From NCBI GenBank assembly GCA_040220235.1, contig JAVJTO010000131.1: a stretch of DNA of 22,303 nucleotides; one strand, 5' to 3'. Source of the DNA: Coleofasciculus sp. B1-GNL1-01. GTDB taxonomy: Bacteria; Cyanobacteriota; Cyanobacteriia; Cyanobacteriales; Coleofasciculaceae. The notes under the pieces are model-generated. The model worked only from the letters and a program-made list of their open reading frames with translations. It was not told the origin of the DNA and searched no databases. How positions within the stretch are numbered: the stretch's first letter is position 1; the number at the start of each line of letters is the position of its first letter. A program made the position numbers and the translations under genes. This document shows, one piece after another, positions 1 through 22,303 of the stretch.

Positions 1-232
1 CACAGCGGCAACGTGACCGTGAGGGCGAGAACGGACTATGTTAAACGCTTCTTCGATGTCTTCAATGGCTTTGCCTCCTTTGAGAAGGATTTTTAAGCCG
101 TCTACGGCTTCATCCGGCAATTTAGATAGGTTAGCTAGGGTACGTTTCCGCACTTTCTTGCCTTCGCGGTAAGAGGAGCGAAGTAATACGGCTGGAGGAG
201 AATTTCTGGCAAGGAACACGCTCTATGTACAT
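1..232 (-). pseudogene. IS1634-family transposase, 5' part, with +1 frameshift after codon 7 (runs off window edge)
   Basis: Manual translation gives ATG(232) MYIERVP, then 4 nt (TGCC) in place of one codon, then RNSPPAVLLRSSYREGKKVRKRTLANLSKLPDEAVDGLKILLKGG...IVRSRPHGHVAAV. This is the typical IS1634 N-terminus. The ATG is one base out of frame with the body. Confidence 0.85.
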
Positions 233-4557: not shown

Positions 4558-4729
4558 CTGAGTTCCGCTATGGCGTCTTTCGATTACTTCTTTCGCAATC
4601 GGATTTTTTGTTCGTGATAACTTACAACGGACTCAGTAGGTCGGTGGAAAAAAACCGAACGATGTTAAGTTCTGTAAATGTTCCTCAACCCCTTACATAA
4701 ACGTAGCTTGCTTCTCAAGGGAGCGAGTA

Positions 4730-4883
4730 TGACAAATGACAAATGACAAATGACAAATGACAAATGACAAATGACAAATGACAAATGACAAATGACAAAT
4801 GACAAATGACAAATGACAAATGACAAATGACAAATGACAAATGACAAATGACTTTTAACTTTTGACGTTTGACTTGTGACTTA
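4730..4883 (+). repeat. STRR heptamer tract: (TGACAAA)x17 plus 5 degenerate units
   Basis: Perfect repeat at 4730-4848, then TGACTTT TAACTTT TGACGTT TGACTTG TGACTTA, ending 5 nt before the ATG at 4889. Confidence 0.95.
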
Positions 4884-11757: not shown

Positions 11758-11862
11758 TATAGCGCTTCGCGCTGGTCTAGTTACACTTTGTTTGTACGAA
11801 CATCCCATCTGGACTCAGCTTCAGAGAAGGGAGTTGTAAATACACCAGAGCGACTTGCTATA
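11758..11862. mobile_element. IS630-type MITE, 105 bp
   Basis: Ends TATAGC...GCTATA, with 28-bp imperfect terminal inverted repeats (22/28) and TA at both ends. Confidence 0.65.
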
Positions 11863-11907: not shown

Positions 11908-12330
11908 TTACCAAAACCAGTTTTCGATTTCAAGAGTTGTAAAGCTTTGATAATCGCTAATGTTGCGTGTTACAAGAATAAGGTTATTGACCTGGGCAAT
12001 TGCAGCAATCTGTCCGTCAATGTAGGATGGAGGTTGTCCTAAGGCTGCTAATCTGGCTCGCTCTGAAGCAAACCACTCAGCGGCTTTTTTGTCATAAGCC
12101 AGAATCCGTAAGTGAGGTTGAATCGTCTCGAAGAGATAGGTTTCAAGCTGTTGTTTACGACGTGATGGGGGAAGACGATGAAATCCGTAAAGTAGCTCAT
12201 GCCATGTAACAGAAGCGATGGCACTTTCTTCACTGTTTTCTTGTAGTTTGGCGACAACAGAAGGGGATGGTTTTAACTTAAAGGGTTCAGAAATGATGTT
12301 TGTATCGAGGAGGAAGCGCAATATTACCAC
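11908..12330 (-). CDS. vapC: VapC-family PIN-domain toxin
   Basis: FLLDTNIISE, VTWHELLYG, DGQIAAIA and LVTRNISDY, with the acidic PIN residues present. Confidence 0.9.
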   Translation of the reverse strand: MVILRFLLDTNIISEPFKLKPSPSVVAKLQENSEESAIASVTWHELLYGFHRLPPSRRKQQLETYLFETIQPHLRILAYDKKAAEWFASERARLAALGQPPSYIDGQIAAIAQVNNLILVTRNISDYQSFTTLEIENWFW

Positions 12331-12587
12331 CTCGCTTTTTCTGGAGCTGGGGTACGATCTCGAACATCTGCAAAGAAGTCTCTTTCTTCAATATCACTTC
12401 CTTCAGCTTCAACTTGAGCGCGGAATTTGGTCAGTGCTTGGGCAAAGGATGATTTTGTATTTTGTGTAGCCTGGATGGGGGGTTGGAGACGACTGAGGAG
12501 GAAATCAACGAATAACAATACCTCTGGTAGCCTACTTTTAGGAAGAAGCTTTAAGCGTTCTAGGATTTGCTCTTGGGTAGTGTTCAT
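12324..12587 (-). CDS. Putative antitoxin (DUF2281-like N-terminus)
   Basis: 87 aa, overlapping the vapC start. LKLLPKSRLPEVLLFVDFL N-terminus and FADVRDR tail. Confidence 0.7.
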   Translation of the reverse strand: MNTTQEQILERLKLLPKSRLPEVLLFVDFLLSRLQPPIQATQNTKSSFAQALTKFRAQVEAEGSDIEERDFFADVRDRTPAPEKARW

Positions 12588-12619
12588 GGACTAATCAGCT
12601 TGCTGAGTATTTCTGTATT

Positions 12620-12780
12620 TTGACATTCTCCCCACCTTACTTCGTTGAAGGTGGGGATTCCCCTCATCGCTGACGGGAGTTCCTGGCTCTACGAGCAACC
12701 TTACTTTTTGGGGTTTCCCCCTCCAAGCAGTGGGTCATCTCATCCCCAGGCGTAACTTTCCGAGTGCCCCTCGGTAGTTG
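12620..12780 (-). ncRNA. Predicted omegaRNA/reRNA scaffold overlapping the tnpB 3' end
   Basis: Established TnpB architecture. The region has hairpins (CCGAGGGGCACTCGG; GGGGAAACCCC) and ends in the RE hairpin plus TCAA. The 5' limit is approximate. Confidence 0.6.
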
Positions 12781-13908
12781 TGCTATACCTTGCAGCGCCT
12801 TCATCAAAATGTTGATGGCAGCATTAACATCCCGGTCATCTAAATAACCGCAATGCGGACATTTATGAGTGCGAGTGGACAAGGCTTTCTTCACTTCCTC
12901 TCCACAATTGGAACAGTCCTGGGACGTGAAATGAGGTGCAACAGCAATTACTGGCACATCAAATACTTTCCCGAAATACTCCAACCACTGCCTAAACAAG
13001 GTCCAACTAGCGTCAGATATTGACTTGGCTAAATGATGGTTTTTGACCATGTTTCGCACTTTTAGGTCTTCAATGGCTACCAAGTCTGCCGACTGGACAA
13101 GCGCCCTTGCAGTCTTTACCGCAAAGTCTTTACGCCGCCTTGACACCTTGAGATGCGTTCTACCCAACTTCTGGATGGCTTTGATGCGATTTTTGGAACC
13201 CTCTGCTCTACGGGAAACACGTTTTTGTGCCTTTTTTAAGGCTTTCTCCGCCTTCCTCAAAAACCTAGGGTTTTCAATCTTGTTGCCATCAGAGTCAGTG
13301 TAAAAGTGGTTTAAACCGACATCTATCCCTACCATCCTATTAGTGGGTTCATGGTGTTCTTTTCGCTCCTGGTTGATGGAAAACTGAACGTAATACCCAT
13401 CAGCTCGACGCACAACACGTACTCGTTTAATTTGCTCTTTTTGGTAAAAGTGTAAGTCACGAGTCCCCCACATTTTAAAGGTTCCAGCCTTGAAGCCATC
13501 CCTAAATGTGATGGTCAATCGGTCATCCGATAGCACCCACCCATCAACCTTATACTCGACTGAGCCATGGGTTTGATGTTTTTTGAATTTTGGGAAACCT
13601 TTCTTGCCTGGAACCTTTTTCTTGCAGTTATCAAAGAATCTAGCAATGGCGCTCCATGCTCTTTCGGCACTAGCTTGGCAAGCTTGAGCTGAAAGCTTCT
13701 TGCACCATTCAAACTGCTCCCTGAGTACCCGGCAATATTTATTGAGGTCATATTTGTTGACCCTGAGCGAAGTCGAAGGGTTGACCCGATGGCTGTCCAT
13801 CCAGTAACGAAGACAAGAATTACGCACAAAACGAGCGGTACAAATCATCTCATCCAAGATAGCGTACTGCTCGTCTGTTCCTCGTAATTTCGCCTCAAAT
13901 ACTAGCAT
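12664..13908 (-). CDS. tnpB: RNA-guided endonuclease TnpB
   Basis: GFPKFKK, RuvC-I VGIDVG, RuvC-II AIEDL, zinc finger CSNC/CPHC and RuvC-III DRDVNAAINI. All three catalytic acidic residues are present. Confidence 0.93.
   Translation of the reverse strand: MLVFEAKLRGTDEQYAILDEMICTARFVRNSCLRYWMDSHRVNPSTSLRVNKYDLNKYCRVLREQFEWCKKLSAQACQASAERAWSAIARFFDNCKKKVPGKKGFPKFKKHQTHGSVEYKVDGWVLSDDRLTITFRDGFKAGTFKMWGTRDLHFYQKEQIKRVRVVRRADGYYVQFSINQERKEHHEPTNRMVGIDVGLNHFYTDSDGNKIENPRFLRKAEKALKKAQKRVSRRAEGSKNRIKAIQKLGRTHLKVSRRRKDFAVKTARALVQSADLVAIEDLKVRNMVKNHHLAKSISDASWTLFRQWLEYFGKVFDVPVIAVAPHFTSQDCSNCGEEVKKALSTRTHKCPHCGYLDDRDVNAAINILMKALQGIAQLPRGTRKVTPGDEMTHCLEGETPKSKVARRARNSRQR
13756..13787. repeat. 24-bp short dispersed repeat inserted in frame in tnpB
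   Basis: CCCTGAGCGAAGTCGAAGGG core, with direct repeats GTTGACCC at 13756 and 13780. Adds PSTSLRVN. Confidence 0.8.
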
Positions 13909-13958
13909 GGCTGACTTAAATCTATGCCATACATTTTAGTATAGACCTTTGAATAATG

Positions 13959-13991
13959 CAAAAAGCAGGTATTCAATATGCCTGCTTTTTG
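13959..13991. terminator. Intrinsic terminator-like hairpin inside the IS, upstream of tnpB
   Basis: CAAAAAGCAGGTAT-TCAAT-ATGCCTGCTTTTTG, with A/T tracts on both sides. Confidence 0.55.
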
Positions 13992-14104
13992 TCCGGAGGG
14001 AGTGAAGGCATCCCCGCCCTACTTCACTTTGTTCCTTCGTTTCGTTGAGGGCGGGGTTCTATTGCTCCCCCAGCCCCCCACGCTTCGATAGTATGACCAA
14101 TGAC

Positions 14105-14920
14105 CTAGGCTCGCAATTTGTAACACACGGCGTTATCAAATTGTACGGGTTCAAAGGCATTATCTAAGTTGACTGTTGTCTCCCCACCGCCGAGAAATAA
14201 ATAGCCATCGGGTTGTAATACCCGCCGTAACCGAGCTAATATTTCTTGCTTCATCTCGATATCGAAATAGATCAAGACATTTCGCAGGAAAATAATATCC
14301 ACCTGGGATAAGGGTAAAACCGTTTCGGTTAAATTAATTGGGCGAAACTCTACCATCTGGCGAATGTCGGGTTTAATTGTCCATCCTTGACTCTTGGGTT
14401 CAAAGTATTTCTGTCGCAAATTTAACGGTAAGCCACGATTGATTTCATGGGGATGATAATATCCAGAACGGGCGCGATTGAGCATTACTTCTGAGATATC
14501 GCTGGCGATTAATTGCACTCTCCAAGTGGTAAGTTCAGGAAAATGCTCGCGCAGCAACATAGCAATACTATAGGGTTCTTGTCCACTGGAACAAGCCGCG
14601 CACCAAATGGTTAGATGGCGTTCGGTTTGTCGTTGTTGAATGAGTTCGGGTATTATCGCATTTTTTAACGCCTGAAATGGGTTATTGTCTCGAAAGAAAA
14701 AAGTTTCAGTGGTCATCATTGCTTCGACAACGGATTGACAAAGCGGATGAAATGGCTTTTGTTGCAGTTGCGCCACTAAACTCTTGACCGAATTTGCCCC
14801 AACCTGTTTGGCTAAACCAATTAGACGAGACTCTACCAAATACTGTTTATCCTCTGAGAGAACAACACCTGTGCGATCGCGCACCAATTTGCGAATATAA
14901 TTAAAGTCGGAATTTGTCAT
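14105..14920 (-). CDS. cheR: Chemotaxis methyltransferase CheR
   Basis: TTETFFFRD, IWCAACSSGQEPYSIAM, ASDIS, DIIFLRNVLIYFD and GYLFLGGGE. Confidence 0.93.
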   Translation of the reverse strand: MTNSDFNYIRKLVRDRTGVVLSEDKQYLVESRLIGLAKQVGANSVKSLVAQLQQKPFHPLCQSVVEAMMTTETFFFRDNNPFQALKNAIIPELIQQRQTERHLTIWCAACSSGQEPYSIAMLLREHFPELTTWRVQLIASDISEVMLNRARSGYYHPHEINRGLPLNLRQKYFEPKSQGWTIKPDIRQMVEFRPINLTETVLPLSQVDIIFLRNVLIYFDIEMKQEILARLRRVLQPDGYLFLGGGETTVNLDNAFEPVQFDNAVCYKLRA

Positions 14921-14962
14921 TGGTCATTGGTCATTGGTCATTGGTCATTGGTCATTGGTCAT
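14914..14962 (-). repeat. STRR heptamer tract (TGGTCAT)x6 + TTGTCAT containing the cheR start codon
   Basis: Read directly from the sequence; the last unit supplies the ATG at 14920. Confidence 0.9.
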
Positions 14963-14994
14963 TTGTTAGGGAATGGGCAATTCAAAATTGGGTT

Positions 14995-15055
14995 AGGGCG
15001 GGTTTAGTTACATCGGGGTGTGGAAAAAAAGGATAACGGTCAAACCCGCCCCTAC
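14995..15055. repeat. REP-like inverted-repeat element overlapping the parA stop
   Basis: AGGGCGGGTTT...AAACCCGCCCCTAC. The CTA at 15052-15054 is the parA TAG. Confidence 0.8.
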
Positions 15056-15903
15056 AAACTCGGTTCTTTGTCTGGTATTTCGGTAAAGTTGGATACACGG
15101 GTTAAATGAGTCGCGATCGCGGCGTAAGCTTTGCCAATTTTGCTGGCTTTGTTTGTATAGTGAGAAATGGGTAATCCTTCTTGCTGCGATCGATAAACTA
15201 AAACCGAATAAGGAACCACAAACACAGGATCTGAACGTTCCTGGAGACTTGACTCAATTTCATCAGACGGATTTAACGGGCTGGATTTCCGGGATTGACG
15301 GGTTTGGCTTACTGTTTTATTTAAAACAATTGTCCAGTCTTTAATCCTATGCCCTTTATTCTCTACTAAATCACAGCAATAGGCTTTTAAATCTTCCAGA
15401 GATTCCCAAGAAAAAATCCCCGGATCAATCGGTACTACAATGTGATGAGTTGCCCTCAAACTATTAAAAAGAAACAATCCAGCATCCGAAGGAACATCAA
15501 TTAAAATATAGTCATAAAACCGCTGAATCGGCTCTAAAATTCGCTGCAATATCCCCGTTTTATCTTTCGTATCTTGCAACAGCATCGGTGCAACCCCTAG
15601 ATTTAAGACAGAAGGGGCGATATGAATATTCTCAATATCCGTTTCTACAATAACCTTAGTAATTGGAACACCACTATACCCCTGACATTGACTTAAAAAA
15701 GCATCATACATCGAATATTGTAAACATCTACCATCAATCCCCAATCCTGATGTCGCATTCCCTTGAGGATCAAAATCCACCACTAAAACTTGATTTCCCC
15801 GTTTAGCCAAACACCCCGCCACATTCACACAAGTCGTGGTTTTCCCCGTTCCCCCTTTAACATTAGCAAACGCCACAGACTTTCCTTCTTTCTTACCCAT
15901 CAA
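15052..15903 (-). CDS. ParA/Soj-family ATPase within a chemotaxis cluster
   Basis: Deviant Walker A KGGTGKTT, VDFDPQGNATSGLG, and Walker B YDYILIDVP. Confidence 0.88.
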   Translation of the reverse strand: MMGKKEGKSVAFANVKGGTGKTTTCVNVAGCLAKRGNQVLVVDFDPQGNATSGLGIDGRCLQYSMYDAFLSQCQGYSGVPITKVIVETDIENIHIAPSVLNLGVAPMLLQDTKDKTGILQRILEPIQRFYDYILIDVPSDAGLFLFNSLRATHHIVVPIDPGIFSWESLEDLKAYCCDLVENKGHRIKDWTIVLNKTVSQTRQSRKSSPLNPSDEIESSLQERSDPVFVVPYSVLVYRSQQEGLPISHYTNKASKIGKAYAAIATHLTRVSNFTEIPDKEPSL

Positions 15904-15950
15904 TCCACCTCAAAAGCATACACATAATCACAACACCCCAACCTCTAACC

Positions 15951-15991
15951 CCCTCTGCGCCCCTCTGCGCCAACCTCTGCGCCCCTCTGCG
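15951..15991 (+). repeat. CCTCTGCG repeat x4
   Basis: Four CCTCTGCG units spaced 10-12 bp apart between cheW and parA. Confidence 0.8.
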
Positions 15992-16001
15992 TTAAAAAAT
16001 C

Positions 16002-16439
16002 TTAATCCATCACCGTAAAATCAACCACTTTATCCACATCCAGAAACAGCAATAATCGATTTGGCAACTTATAAGAACCCTGAATTAACTCTCGCACTCC
16101 CCCCCTATACGTATCTGGAGGACGTTCAAAATCGTCATTAGTTACATCCAAAACATCGCCAATTTCATCCACCAACAAACTCACTGTTTCATCAGGAGTT
16201 CGGACAATTACATTGATAGGGAACAGATCATAATCCCGTGGCTTCAACTCCAATCGCCGTCGTAAATCAATCGCCGTCACAATTTGTCCCCGTAAATTAA
16301 TTAAACCCGCCACAACCGGAGGCGCAAGGGGAACTCGCGTCATCTCTTGATGACGTAATATTTCTTGAACCTTTTCTACTTCAATACCTAAGAAAAGATT
16401 ATCGAGAAAAAAAGTACAGACTTGAGTCGTATTTTTCAT
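16002..16439 (-). CDS. cheW: Chemotaxis coupling protein CheW
   Basis: VQEIL, TRVPLAP, GLINLRGQIVTAIDL and LLVDEIGDV. Confidence 0.93.
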   Translation of the reverse strand: MKNTTQVCTFFLDNLFLGIEVEKVQEILRHQEMTRVPLAPPVVAGLINLRGQIVTAIDLRRRLELKPRDYDLFPINVIVRTPDETVSLLVDEIGDVLDVTNDDFERPPDTYRGGVRELIQGSYKLPNRLLLFLDVDKVVDFTVMD

Positions 16440-16530
16440 TCGTCATTCTTTAGTCATTTTTTATACTCACTATCATCGAGAAGCAAGCTAATTTATTCGT
16501 TATTTGTGCTTATTAATTAACTCTGTGACT

Positions 16531-18840
16531 TCAAACTTCAACTAACATCGGCTGGGTTAGGGATAAAGACTGTTCCACTAGGGAATTCACATCAATGATT
16601 TCCGTGACTTTACCCTGAATCACCGCTGAACAGAGAATTGCCTTTTGTGGAGATACCCCTTTAATATTAATACCTTGTTCAACAATATCCAGAACCTGAT
16701 CCACCACCAACCCCACTTGTTTGTCTCCCTGCAAAGAAACAACAATTACGGATTGTTTATCCTCACTAATTTCCGATTGGCGATCGCGCACCTGAAACCC
16801 GGAATCACCGTTGCTCAAAACAGCCGATAAATGAATCAGCGGCATGATATGCTGGCGATATTGAATCACCTCTTGATCGCCCAAATATTCGATGCGATCG
16901 CGGGGAAATTCTTCTAGGCGCGATACCTTAGACAAAGGAATTGCCAAACGTCGCTGATTGGCGGCGTGGAAGACTAAAAGCTGCTGGGGAATAGCGGCAG
17001 AATTCACCGATTGACTGTCCTCATTCACTAAGGCTTTTTCCTTTTCCGGAGAGGTAATCAGCGTTTTTTGTGCCAAACCCTGGACATCTAAAATCAATAC
17101 CACTTTCCCATCCCCCATAATTGTCGCCCCCGCAAAACAAGCTAGGGATTTTAGCGGTTTTCCTAAGGGTTTAACTACGATTTCTTGGGTATCGTTAATC
17201 ACATCCACAACTAATCCAAAGGGTTTCTCGGTGGCTTGAACCACAACAATGTTAATCGTTTCATCCTCTTGTTCAGGAATTAAACTTTGCTTTTTAGCAT
17301 TCGAGGTTTTCCCTATACCGCTAGACTCCTGCACTCCGGTATTATTTTCCAGTTGCAACACCTGATTTAAGTAAACCAAGGGTAATAAATTCCCCCGTAA
17401 CCGATAGACGGGTGTTCCATGAAACCATTCGATCCGCTGTTCAGCTTGTTCGCGATCTAACCGTACCAGTTCTAACAGATTCACTTGGGGAATGGCATAG
17501 CGACCGCCGCCACTGGTAATAATTAATGTCGGGATAATCGCCAAAGTCAGCGGGATTTTAAGTTTAAAAATTGTCCCTTGACCCAACCGACTTTCGACAT
17601 CAATTGTGCCACTAATTTTCTCAATATTTGCCCTAACGACATCCATTCCTACACCCCGTCCGGAAATATTAGTTACAGTTTCGGCGGTGGAAAAACTGGG
17701 TAAAAAGATGAGGTGAAGCGCTTCCTGTTCGGTCATGTGCAGGGCTTGTGTTGGCGTAATTATTCCCTGTTGTAGCGCTTTTTGTTTCAGGTTTTCGAGA
17801 TCAATTCCTTTGCCATCATCAGACACTTCAATATTAACGTGTCCGCTTTCGTGATAGGCGCGGAGTAACAAGCGCCCTACTTGAGATTTTCCGGCGGCTT
17901 TCCTCATGTCTGGGGTGTCTAAACCATGATCCAGACAATTGCGGACAAGATGGGTTAGGGGATTCGCGATCGCTTCGATTAAGGTTTTGTCTAATTCTGT
18001 CTCTTCTCCCTCCATTTCCAATTGCACTTGCTTGTTTAAACTCACCGCCAGATCGCGCACGACACGGGGGAATTTACTCCAAATTGTGCGAATCGGTTGC
18101 ATCCGGGTTTTCATTACCCCTTCTTGCAATTCGGAGGTGACTAAATTTAATCGTCCCGATGCTGATTTAAACGCATCATCATGTTCAGCGATCACCGCTT
18201 GTTGATTGGCAAATTCTAAAATTTGATTGCGACATAGTACCAATTCTCCCACCAGATTCATTAACTTATCCAGGAGATTTACATCGACACGGATGGCGCT
18301 ATTGGTGATTGGTGAGGGGGAATGGGAATGTGATGTCTGGGGATTAGGCGCAGCATTCAGGTTAGGATCTTGGTATAAAATTGATGGATCTGGGTGCGAA
18401 TGTCCCCCTACAGATTCGGCTTGGGTTTCGGATTCCTCATCTTTGATCCTCTCCTCATTCTCAACAGGTAATGCATTTAACTGATTGAATAAAGCCGTGC
18501 GATCGCGTGAACTTTCTTCGCCAGTGGTTTCGAGACTCTCAAAGTGATCGCGGATGGCGTCGATCACTTCTAATAACGCATTGGTAATATCTGGTGTTAC
18601 TGGAATTTTCGCTTCCCGTAAACGACTGAGTAAATTTTCTCCCCCATGGGTAATTCCCTGTAATTTCTCTAAACCGAGAAAACCACTGTTTCCTTTAATC
18701 GTGTGCAGATGGCGGTAAATCCGGTTGATCACCTCTGCATCTGAGGTGCTTTGTTCCAAGGCGACTAAATCCCCTTCGAGTTGATTCAGGTGTTCGTAGC
18801 CTTCCACTAAGAATTCCTTGAGATCCTCATCGATTTCCAT
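16531..18840 (-). CDS. cheA: Chemotaxis histidine kinase CheA (Hpt-dimerisation-HATPase-CheW-CheW)
   Basis: Hpt HTIKG, RVDVNLLDKLMNLVGELV, HLVRNCLDHG, DDGKG, SGRGVGMDVV and two CheW-like domains. No REC domain and no obvious P2. Confidence 0.93.
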   Translation of the reverse strand: MEIDEDLKEFLVEGYEHLNQLEGDLVALEQSTSDAEVINRIYRHLHTIKGNSGFLGLEKLQGITHGGENLLSRLREAKIPVTPDITNALLEVIDAIRDHFESLETTGEESSRDRTALFNQLNALPVENEERIKDEESETQAESVGGHSHPDPSILYQDPNLNAAPNPQTSHSHSPSPITNSAIRVDVNLLDKLMNLVGELVLCRNQILEFANQQAVIAEHDDAFKSASGRLNLVTSELQEGVMKTRMQPIRTIWSKFPRVVRDLAVSLNKQVQLEMEGEETELDKTLIEAIANPLTHLVRNCLDHGLDTPDMRKAAGKSQVGRLLLRAYHESGHVNIEVSDDGKGIDLENLKQKALQQGIITPTQALHMTEQEALHLIFLPSFSTAETVTNISGRGVGMDVVRANIEKISGTIDVESRLGQGTIFKLKIPLTLAIIPTLIITSGGGRYAIPQVNLLELVRLDREQAEQRIEWFHGTPVYRLRGNLLPLVYLNQVLQLENNTGVQESSGIGKTSNAKKQSLIPEQEDETINIVVVQATEKPFGLVVDVINDTQEIVVKPLGKPLKSLACFAGATIMGDGKVVLILDVQGLAQKTLITSPEKEKALVNEDSQSVNSAAIPQQLLVFHAANQRRLAIPLSKVSRLEEFPRDRIEYLGDQEVIQYRQHIMPLIHLSAVLSNGDSGFQVRDRQSEISEDKQSVIVVSLQGDKQVGLVVDQVLDIVEQGINIKGVSPQKAILCSAVIQGKVTEIIDVNSLVEQSLSLTQPMLVEV

Positions 18841-22012: not shown

Positions 22013-22303
22013 CAGGGCTAATTCATTGTGCTGAGAGAATATTAGGACGACCAGTATTTAGAGTAATCTAAATCTTGCTGCGATAGTTTTATCGATTATT
22101 TTGATTGCTTTGAAGGTCTATCTCCTGGAAGCGTTAACCCCATTGCCTGAGTTTCGTGACGAAAGAGGACGGCTTTATCCTTTGTGGTTACTTCTTTTGC
22201 TGGTGTTTATGGGAACTCTGAGTGATTGTTTATGTTATCGTGCCCTGGAAGATTTTTGTCGGTGGCATCATGTGTCATTGGTGACTACTCTGCAATTACC
22301 TCA
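22013..22303 (+). mobile_element. ISAs1-family element, left end and transposase N-terminus (TTG 22110 to window edge)
   Basis: CAGGGC terminus at 22013. Manual translation MKVYLLEALTPLPEFRDERGRLYPLWLLLLLVFMGTLSDCLCYRALEDFCRWH resembles the DDE_Tnp_1-associated domain. Confidence 0.75.

What the first reader, a model, noticed from the sequence alone, without database searches (positions are those of the whole stretch)
12587..14091. tnpB element appears to split the TATAAT -10 box of a vapBC operon: possible excision switch guarded by its own nuclease
Seen: on the minus strand the right end has GAAT before its hairpin and ends in TCAA (12623-12620). The left-end hairpin is preceded by AGAA, and CTAT lies at 14091-14088. 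Established: IS608/ISDra2 guide-to-cleavage-site pairing (GAAT->TCAA, AAAG->TTAC), scarless excision, and TnpB cutting of the empty site. Inference: the same rule gives AGAA->CTAT. Joining the flanks gives ...CATAC-TAT|AAT-ACAGAAATACTC..., a perfect TATAAT 29 nt upstream of the antitoxin ATG (12587). Insertion would destroy the native TA promoter and excision would restore it. The predicted TAM (CTAT) plus guide (AATACAGAAATACTCAGC) targets exactly the restored promoter. No canonical -35 is seen at 17 bp, and CTAT lies about 31 nt from the hairpin, further than in IS608.
Basis: partly seen in the sequence, partly recalled or inferred. Interest (0 to 1): 0.85.

Follow-up and report, generated by a model that had tools for sequence, protein, structure and literature searches.

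The report
TnpB transposon inside toxin-antitoxin promoter box
A small jumping element carrying an RNA-guided nuclease landed exactly inside the probable start signal of a toxin-antitoxin gene pair in one cyanobacterial strain, but its own end seems to rebuild a similar signal in the same place, so it looks like an ordinary selfish insertion, not an on/off switch.

Summary
The anatomy is confirmed. A 1,468-bp tnpB-only IS200/IS605 element spans 14087-12620 (minus strand). CTAT precedes the left end in 19 of 22 distinct left ends of related copies. A same-genus genome has the empty site exactly as predicted, with TATAAT 29 nt before the antitoxin ATG. That hexamer is probably a real -10 box: it is enriched 2.4-fold at this distance from start codons in this genome.

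The switch reading is not supported. Cutting of the empty site is generic to TnpB elements and works against lasting excision. The element has no tnpA. The filled allele was seen only in this genome. The filled junction reads TG-T-CAAAAT in the same register as TATAAT, and that extended -10-like motif class is enriched 1.8-fold before start codons. The tnpB promoter could also read through. The promoter was probably swapped, not destroyed.

The genome's second copy also splits a -10-like hexamer, but across the family such junctions are not significantly enriched (3 of 42, p about 0.08). No RNA data covered the locus. Verdict: a new member of a known kind, with a TAM not found in my searches.

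The parts
14105..14920 (-). cheR methyltransferase gene (host), upstream and co-oriented; its stop lies 13 nt before the TAM
   Evidence: Pfam CheR and CheR_N; same gene precedes the empty site in G007
14088..14091 (-). TAM / left cleavage site CTAT (host DNA); supplies TAT, the first half of the empty-site TATAAT
   Evidence: 19 of 22 left ends, 3 more; empty alleles
13909..14087 (-). Left end: G-rich tip, guide AGAA (14060-14057), inner hairpin 14056-14012 followed by AT, possible outer stem
   Evidence: 97% of cells paired, covariation not above shuffles; AT after the foot matches IS608 A+42/T+43 (PMC3201880)
13959..13991 (-). Second left-end hairpin flanked by A and T tracts; terminator-like, may insulate against cheR read-through (inferred)
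   Evidence: inverted repeat I10; DNA fold z = -4.8; not called by the terminator scan
13933..13962 (-). Promoter-like site of tnpB (TTTGCA-18-TAAAAT), pointing toward vapBC
   Evidence: consensus match only; 1 found, 2.7 expected by chance
12664..13908 (-). tnpB, 414 aa; RuvC D196/E280/D360 and Zn-finger C332/C335/C350/C353 present
   Evidence: Pfam OrfB_IS605 and Cas12f1-like_TNB; NCBIfam guided_TnpB 305 bits, cut-off 100; ISDra2 TnpB structures E = 2.5e-41; residues
13755..13781 (-). Short dispersed repeat inserted in frame in tnpB (8 extra aa against the C70 copy)
   Evidence: 27 matches in own genome, 40 of 108 candidates scored
12620..12770 (-). Right end and predicted omegaRNA scaffold overlapping the tnpB 3' end; guide GAAT 12660-12657, hairpin, A-10/G-9, TCAA 12623-12620
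   Evidence: 88-95% identity among the closest copies; RNA fold of 12800-12600 z = -4.45; geometry equals IS608 RE
12617..12625 (-). Hybrid extended -10-like motif TG-T-CAAAAT formed by the element's last six bases plus host AAT
   Evidence: sequence; motif class enriched at -45..-28 of ATGs, 49 against 26.9 expected, antisense 25 against 21.7; function not shown
12602..12619 (-). Predicted omegaRNA guide (host flank); first 18 nt identical to the G007 empty allele
   Evidence: no TAM-plus-guide target of 10 nt or more elsewhere in the assembly
12324..12587 (-). Putative antitoxin, 87 aa (weak DUF2281 / VapB matches, below cut-offs)
   Evidence: PF10047 E = 0.006; NF050009 E = 0.023; overlaps the toxin start by 7 nt
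11908..12330 (-). PIN-domain VapC-like toxin, 140 aa, intact
   Evidence: PF01850 above cut-off; VapC models below cut-off; 139 of 139 aligned residues identical to the G007 empty-allele copy

Best explanation
This is a non-autonomous IS200/IS605 element of the tnpB-only (IS1341) architecture. SHOWN: it is inserted without target duplication 3' of CTAT, and the empty site reads TATAAT 29 nt before the antitoxin gene. INFERRED from family biology: a Y1 TnpA acting in trans made the insertion, reading CTAT through the left-end guide AGAA; TnpB with its flank-derived guide would cut any excised or empty copy and so keep or spread the element. INFERRED from genome statistics: the TATAAT was the TA cassette's -10 box. 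The insertion replaced its first half and upstream context with the element's terminal TGTCAA, giving TG-T-CAAAAT at the same distance from the start site. Transcription of the TA pair therefore probably continues, from this hybrid and/or by read-through from the tnpB/omegaRNA transcript, at some changed level. It is a selfish insertion that happened to be tolerated in a promoter, not a host-regulated switch.
For: Ends and TAM fixed by copies and by two independent empty sites. Guide position 3 varies (A, G, T) while the TAM stays CTAT in L037, L309 and L080, as the IS608 pairing predicts. A described relative in Nostoc PCC 7120 has the same type of right end but AAAG after TTAC. TATAAT is the 3rd most enriched of 4,068 hexamers at -45..-28 of ATG (70 against 28.8), sense strand only, and the TA copy in another genus has TAGAAT at the same -35 offset. 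TG.CA..AT is enriched 1.8-fold (p about 1e-4) after removing tandem repeats and IS ends, while TG.GA..AT and TG.AA..AT show no peak. The toxin is unchanged against the empty allele. Co-transcription of downstream genes by an IS200/IS605 element in a cyanobacterium is reported (ISTosp1, in PMC9330008).
Against: No transcript data: 0 reads in two RNA runs. An enrichment of 2.4-fold means about 60% of such hexamers are real promoters, and 1.8-fold about 45%. CAAAAT alone is only 1.3-fold enriched (rank 328). The motif test was devised after seeing the junction and uses crude ORF calls. Two copies break the guide rule (L081 guide ACTA with CTAT; L115 GTAT with AGAA). No cognate TnpA was identified. 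A third close antitoxin copy (G006, broken gene) has no TAnnnT at this offset.
Confidence: 0.6

Rival explanations
1. Plain knock-out: the insertion destroys the TA promoter and the left-end hairpin blocks cheR read-through, so the TA pair is silent. The event is neutral and recent, so the genes have not yet decayed.
For: TATAAT is the stronger motif (2.4-fold against 1.3-fold for CAAAAT); no -35 in either allele; terminator-like left-end hairpin; the TA cassette is dispensable, being missing at this locus in G003 and G004 and broken in G006.
Against: The TG-extended class is enriched; the tnpB promoter is co-oriented with no terminator called downstream; abrupt silencing of an active type II TA pair would be expected to free the toxin (general knowledge, not tested).
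Confidence: 0.2
2. The TATAAT is not the TA promoter. In the empty allele the pair is read through from cheR, whose stop lies about 55 nt before the ATG, and the hexamer is a by-product of an AT-rich target site.
For: No -35 or TG in the empty allele; 2.4% of intergenic CTAT sites are followed by AAT by chance; in G004 the sequence shared with G007 runs through CTATA and then differs, so part of the hexamer belongs to the host side.
Against: Position in the enrichment peak; TAGAAT at the same offset in G013, where cheR is not upstream.
Confidence: 0.12
3. One reading: stress-induced excision by a TnpA in trans restores TATAAT and turns vapBC on, and TnpB re-closes the switch by cutting the restored promoter.
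For: Excision would be scarless and restore TATAAT; both ends are intact; two uninterrupted Y1 tnpA domains exist in the genome (C63, C86); ISDra2 excision rises about 10-fold after irradiation and restores an interrupted marker in an engineered assay (PMC2806898).
Against: Filled allele seen only in G000; no tnpA in the element, and both intact tnpA genes sit in other, divergent IS605-type elements; TnpB targeting of the joint is generic and favours retention; the off state is doubtful; restoring a bicistronic promoter makes antitoxin and toxin together, so there is no clear output; the site has A at position -5 where 19 of 21 CTAT copies have T or C, so it may be a weak TnpB target.
Confidence: 0.05

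Closest known systems
IS608 of Helicobacter pylori (IS200/IS605 family; PMC3201880, passages)
   Same: Right end GAAT guide, hairpin, A-10/G-9, TCAA 10 nt from the foot; AT after the left hairpin; insertion 3' of a tetranucleotide without duplication
   Different: Left guide AGAA and target CTAT in place of AAAG and TTAC; 31 nt from target to hairpin foot, not 19; no tnpA
ISDra2 TnpB-reRNA (PMC8612924, passages; PDB 8bf8/8h1j) and G. stearothermophilus ISGst elements (bioRxiv 2023.03.14.532601, passages)
   Same: TnpB with intact RuvC, RNA scaffold overlapping the gene's 3' end, guide taken from the flank, predicted cutting of the donor joint; tnpA-less copies are the majority
   Different: TAM (Y)CTAT rather than TTGAT; nuclease activity not tested here; 8-aa repeat-derived insert near the N terminus
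tnpB-only element of Nostoc PCC 7120 plasmids (NC_003267.1, WP_010994068.1); I recall this as IS891-like, but the name comes from no call
   Same: 66% DNA identity over tnpB; same right-end foot ending in ATGTCAA
   Different: Its left end shows TTAC, then AAAG and a short hairpin; the element here has a longer, nested left end and targets CTAT
IS-made fusion promoters and read-through (review PMC9330008, passages)
   Same: An IS end combines with host DNA to form a promoter; ISTosp1 (IS200/IS605, Tolypothrix) co-transcribes downstream genes; Neisseria CREE elements favour TAT/CTATA sites resembling -10 boxes
   Different: Classical fusions bring a -35 to a host -10. Here the IS end would supply the TG motif and the first half of the -10 itself. 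Not shown experimentally.

Membership tests
IS200/IS605 family, tnpB-only (IS1341) group | Subterminal hairpins at both ends, no terminal inverted repeats | tested here: met
   left-end covariation itself is not above shuffles (80 of 500 reach the score)
IS200/IS605 family, tnpB-only (IS1341) group | Insertion 3' of a fixed 4-5 nt motif with no target duplication | tested here: met
   19 of 22 left ends after CTAT; empty alleles
IS200/IS605 family, tnpB-only (IS1341) group | Guide tetranucleotides 5' of each hairpin that pair with the cleavage sites | tested here: met
   GAAT/TCAA and AGAA/CTAT; position 3 free in L037, L309, L080; exceptions L081, L115
IS200/IS605 family, tnpB-only (IS1341) group | tnpB as sole ORF, no tnpA | tested here: met
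IS200/IS605 family, tnpB-only (IS1341) group | Mobilisation in trans by a Y1 TnpA | tested here: inconclusive
   copies at many unrelated sites show past mobility; two uninterrupted Y1 domains in the genome belong to other elements; cognate enzyme unknown
TnpB-omegaRNA (OMEGA) nuclease | Intact RuvC D-E-D and Zn finger; structured RNA at the right end | tested here: met
   no Rfam match at useful significance
TnpB-omegaRNA (OMEGA) nuclease | TAM-dependent RNA-guided DNA cleavage | not testable with these tools
   needs a cleavage or interference assay
vapBC type II toxin-antitoxin operon | PIN-domain toxin downstream of a small overlapping gene | tested here: met
vapBC type II toxin-antitoxin operon | Upstream gene is a recognised VapB antitoxin | tested here: inconclusive
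   DUF2281 and TA_VapB matches below curated cut-offs
vapBC type II toxin-antitoxin operon | Toxicity, neutralisation, autoregulation | not testable with these tools
   needs expression assays
IS-excision genetic switch (reversible, regulated) | Filled allele conserved or recurrent across strains | tested here: not met
   only G000 among the 61 genomes and the 9; empty in G007 and in runs X1, X2
IS-excision genetic switch (reversible, regulated) | Both states present in one population | tested here: inconclusive
   no raw DNA reads of this strain among the 24 runs listed; the joints carry another haplotype
IS-excision genetic switch (reversible, regulated) | Filled state is off and empty state is on | not testable with these tools
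   0 RNA reads; sequence statistics argue against a clean off state

The most novel reading that the evidence does not exclude
The conserved right-end tip TGTCAA of these cyanobacterial IS200/IS605 elements acts as a promoter patch. When a CTAT-targeting member lands inside a TAT|nnT -10 box, the junction rebuilds an extended -10 (TG-T-CAAnnT) in register. The element can then sit in promoters without silencing the gene, much as IStrons stay harmless by splicing, and surviving copies accumulate in -10 boxes. Both copies in this genome fit: TATAAT 32 nt and TATACT 38 nt from junction to a co-oriented ATG, where 0.4% of intergenic CTAT sites combine that distance with an AnT flank. A right-end remnant 26 nt before a fur-family gene also has an AAT flank, but its TAM could not be checked. 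Against: AAT flanks are 3 of 42 other sites (p about 0.08); one of them abuts a convergent gene end and one lies about 108 nt before an ATG.
Probability: 0.15. Interest if true: 0.65.

Novelty: new member of a known kind. Interest (0 to 1): 0.3.

Why it matters
As it stands: a well-bounded TnpB element whose (Y)CTAT target is fixed by more than 20 copies and two empty sites. It is a ready candidate for a compact nuclease with another TAM, and a natural example of retargeting by a changed DNA guide (AAAG->TTAC against AGAA->CTAT). The locus offers a clean three-allele test (empty, filled, mutated junction) of what an IS200/IS605 insertion does to a promoter. If the promoter-patch reading holds, it would be a DNA-level way for these elements to be harmless to the host. 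The switch reading would matter more but has little support.

Tried and rejected
Excision products in reads: no listed run holds half of the locus's words; the joints in X1 and X2 carry 7 extra bases and many substitutions, so they are another strain's empty allele; RNA runs X21 and X22 gave 0 reads, which is no test. Family-wide targeting of -10 boxes: AAT follows the right end at 2 of 24 close and 3 of 42 wider sites against 2.45% background (p = 0.12 and 0.08); nnT 18 of 42 (p = 0.04) and AnT 7 of 42 (p = 0.035), uncorrected and explainable by AT richness. The index site and 19 low-similarity rows were left out, one orthologous pair is counted twice, and most right-end-only sites have no verified TAM. 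A gene-context survey of all these sites was not completed, so the share lying before co-oriented genes stays open. More copies: the left end matched only G000 in 401 class-level genomes; most hits of the genome and metagenome pattern scans were chance. Empty allele of the fur-adjacent copy: no close relative found. Cognate tnpA beside a close tnpB: none in held loci, using two queries. Rfam: only chance-level matches. Left-end covariation: not above shuffles. PMC12641261 (passages) gave nothing usable on -35-less cyanobacterial promoters, so that point is recalled. The Arc preprint (abstract and outline) does not apply: no arc-sized ORF lies in the left end. PMC5027513 (passages) links IS608 insertion to stalled forks and the lagging strand; its passages say nothing on promoter targeting.

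Full report
Setting. The window is contig C131 of an 8.66-Mb genome. Named public records with the same left-end motif and element anatomy come from Coleofasciculus, Oscillatoria, Phormidium, Geitlerinema and Limnoraphis, so the host is a filamentous cyanobacterium. On the minus strand the order is cheR (14920-14105), tnpB (13908-12664), an 87-aa ORF (12587-12324) and a PIN-domain gene (12330-11908).

All motifs are at the stated places. The right end copies IS608 geometry: GAAT, hairpin, A at -10 and G at -9, and TCAA 10 nt from the foot; the left hairpin is followed by AT as in IS608 (PMC3201880, passages). Among 22 distinct real left-end rows, 19 follow CTAT, one follows GTAT and two (one orthologous insertion) have lost the tip; four chance rows were dropped. 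One search adds three more CTAT ends. The base before CTAT is T or C in 19 of 21 informative copies against about 50% background, so the preferred target is probably YCTAT; this site has A. Guide position 3 varies while the target stays CTAT in three copies, as the pairing rule predicts, and two copies break the rule. The element is 1,468 bp.

Empty alleles. G007 has cheR joined to the TA pair through the predicted junction, with flanks 97-98% identical. Contigs of runs X1 and X2 show the same haplotype, with 7 extra bases upstream; these are other strains, not excision products, and may be one population. The genome's second copy (C70, 87% DNA identity) has an empty allele in 5 of 5 genomes searched, reading CTAT|ACT. 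That copy has lost its left tip together with about 190 bp of host DNA. G003 and G004 lack the TA pair at the cheR locus, G006 has a broken antitoxin, and G013 has the pair without cheR. The filled allele was seen only in G000.

Is TATAAT a promoter? Probably. In 4,015 genes of this genome with free upstream DNA, TATAAT starting 45-28 nt before ATG occurs 70 times against 28.8 expected (rank 3 of 4,068 hexamers), and not on the antisense strand (25 against 24). The site starts at -35, in the peak bin. G013 has TAGAAT at the same offset with different upstream DNA; G006 has none. That cyanobacterial promoters often lack a -35 is recalled, not read here. No start site could be observed.

Does insertion destroy it? 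Probably not fully. The element ends in TGTCAA, so the filled junction reads TG-T-CAAAAT with the hexamer in the same register. The class TG.CA..AT is enriched at the same distance (49 against 26.9, p = 8e-5; antisense 25 against 21.7). It stays so after removing IS-end-like hits, and TG.GA..AT and TG.AA..AT show no peak. CAAAAT without regard to TG is only 1.3-fold enriched. This test was post hoc and rests on crude ORF calls. Separately, a promoter-like site before tnpB points toward the TA pair and no terminator is called on that strand, and the omegaRNA must be transcribed into the flank. Read-through by a cyanobacterial IS200/IS605 element is on record (PMC9330008, passages). The toxin is identical to the empty-allele copy.

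Is it a guarded switch? The guard is generic. TnpB takes about 16 nt of flank as its guide and cuts the donor joint (PMC8612924, passages), which promotes retention, and most tnpB elements lack tnpA (bioRxiv 2023.03.14.532601, passages; PMC10691335, passages). Any copy therefore targets whatever it interrupted. RuvC and Zn-finger residues are present. No second target exists in the assembly, while the G007-type allele matches the guide over 18 nt, so homing between strains is the expected role. Excision needs a TnpA in trans. Two uninterrupted Y1 domains exist but sit in other elements, and no held locus with a close tnpB hit either query (0 of 95). Stress-induced excision is known for ISDra2 (PMC2806898, passages), so rare excision is possible, but nothing here points to regulation or selection.

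Family-level preference for -10 boxes. Both copies in this genome split a TAnnnT hexamer 32-38 nt before a co-oriented gene; 0.4% of intergenic CTAT sites have that distance and an AnT flank. Across other sites the signal is weak: AAT at 2 of 24 or 3 of 42 (p = 0.12, 0.08). Of those three, one precedes a fur-family ATG by 26 nt with an unverifiable TAM, one abuts a convergent gene end and one lies about 108 nt before an ATG. This remains a lead. Earlier scan notes on phage TnpB elements in promoters were read after I had found the hybrid motif; they are unchecked.

Comparison and novelty. The element meets every sequence-testable feature of the tnpB-only IS200/IS605 group. The nearest annotated relatives in the plasmid collection are 65-66% identical; the PCC 7120 one shows TTAC and AAAG at its left end and the same right-end foot. 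No paper in the library held TnpB, TAM and CTAT together. Judged from titles and abstract starts, searches listed no natural IS200/IS605 excision switch and no right end rebuilding a -10. The library lacks most subscription papers, and ISfinder and supplementary TAM tables were not seen, so CTAT may already be catalogued.

Verdict. Observation confirmed; interpretation partly supported. Most likely an ordinary selfish insertion that swapped the -10 box of a patchy TA cassette (0.6); knock-out 0.2; not a promoter 0.12; regulated switch 0.05. Interest 0.3.

Noticed in passing
G000:C70:162796-164216 (L323): Second copy of the element splits TATACT 38 nt before a DUF2721 gene; its left tip and about 190 bp of host upstream DNA are deleted, so it probably cannot excise. 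The same insertion is in G002.
   Followed up: yes
window 13781-13755: A short dispersed repeat sits in frame in tnpB (8 extra aa); at least 27 matches in the genome.
   Followed up: partly
window 11758-11860: A 103-bp stretch with TA..TA ends downstream of the toxin is skipped in X1 contigs and related pieces reach high depth elsewhere: a MITE-like insertion.
   Followed up: partly
L059 (G004:C145) about 2340-2450: At the same CTATA site after cheR, G004 carries a different, mobile-looking sequence and no TA pair; the site may be a hot spot.
   Followed up: partly
L094 (G046:C348) 1318-1577: A right-end remnant without most of tnpB lies 26 nt before a fur-family gene, with an AAT flank.
   Followed up: partly
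L115, L309, L123: Internally deleted 330-370 bp copies and a left-end variant lacking the inner hairpin: PATE-like derivatives.
   Followed up: no
G000:C63:21179-24247: A related tnpB (about 56% identity) is split by an intact divergent tnpA-tnpB element: nested IS605-family insertion.
   Followed up: no
L272-L299: Distant homologues share the antitoxin's C-terminal part but have a different N terminus, with a conserved GATATA(A/G)(T/C) box about 47 nt before ATG: domain swapping among cyanobacterial antitoxins.
   Followed up: no
G000:C151:41991-42338 and C84:79557-79901: Two Y1 transposase-like genes flanked by repeated palindromes, resembling REP-associated TnpA (label recalled).
   Followed up: no
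window 14105-18840: cheA-cheW-parA-like-cheR chemotaxis-type cluster on the minus strand, with heptamer tandem repeats at 14912-14963 and 4729-4852; only cheR was checked against Pfam.
   Followed up: no
window 1-219 and 22101-22303: Both contig ends run into transposase-like ORF fragments (judged by eye).
   Followed up: no
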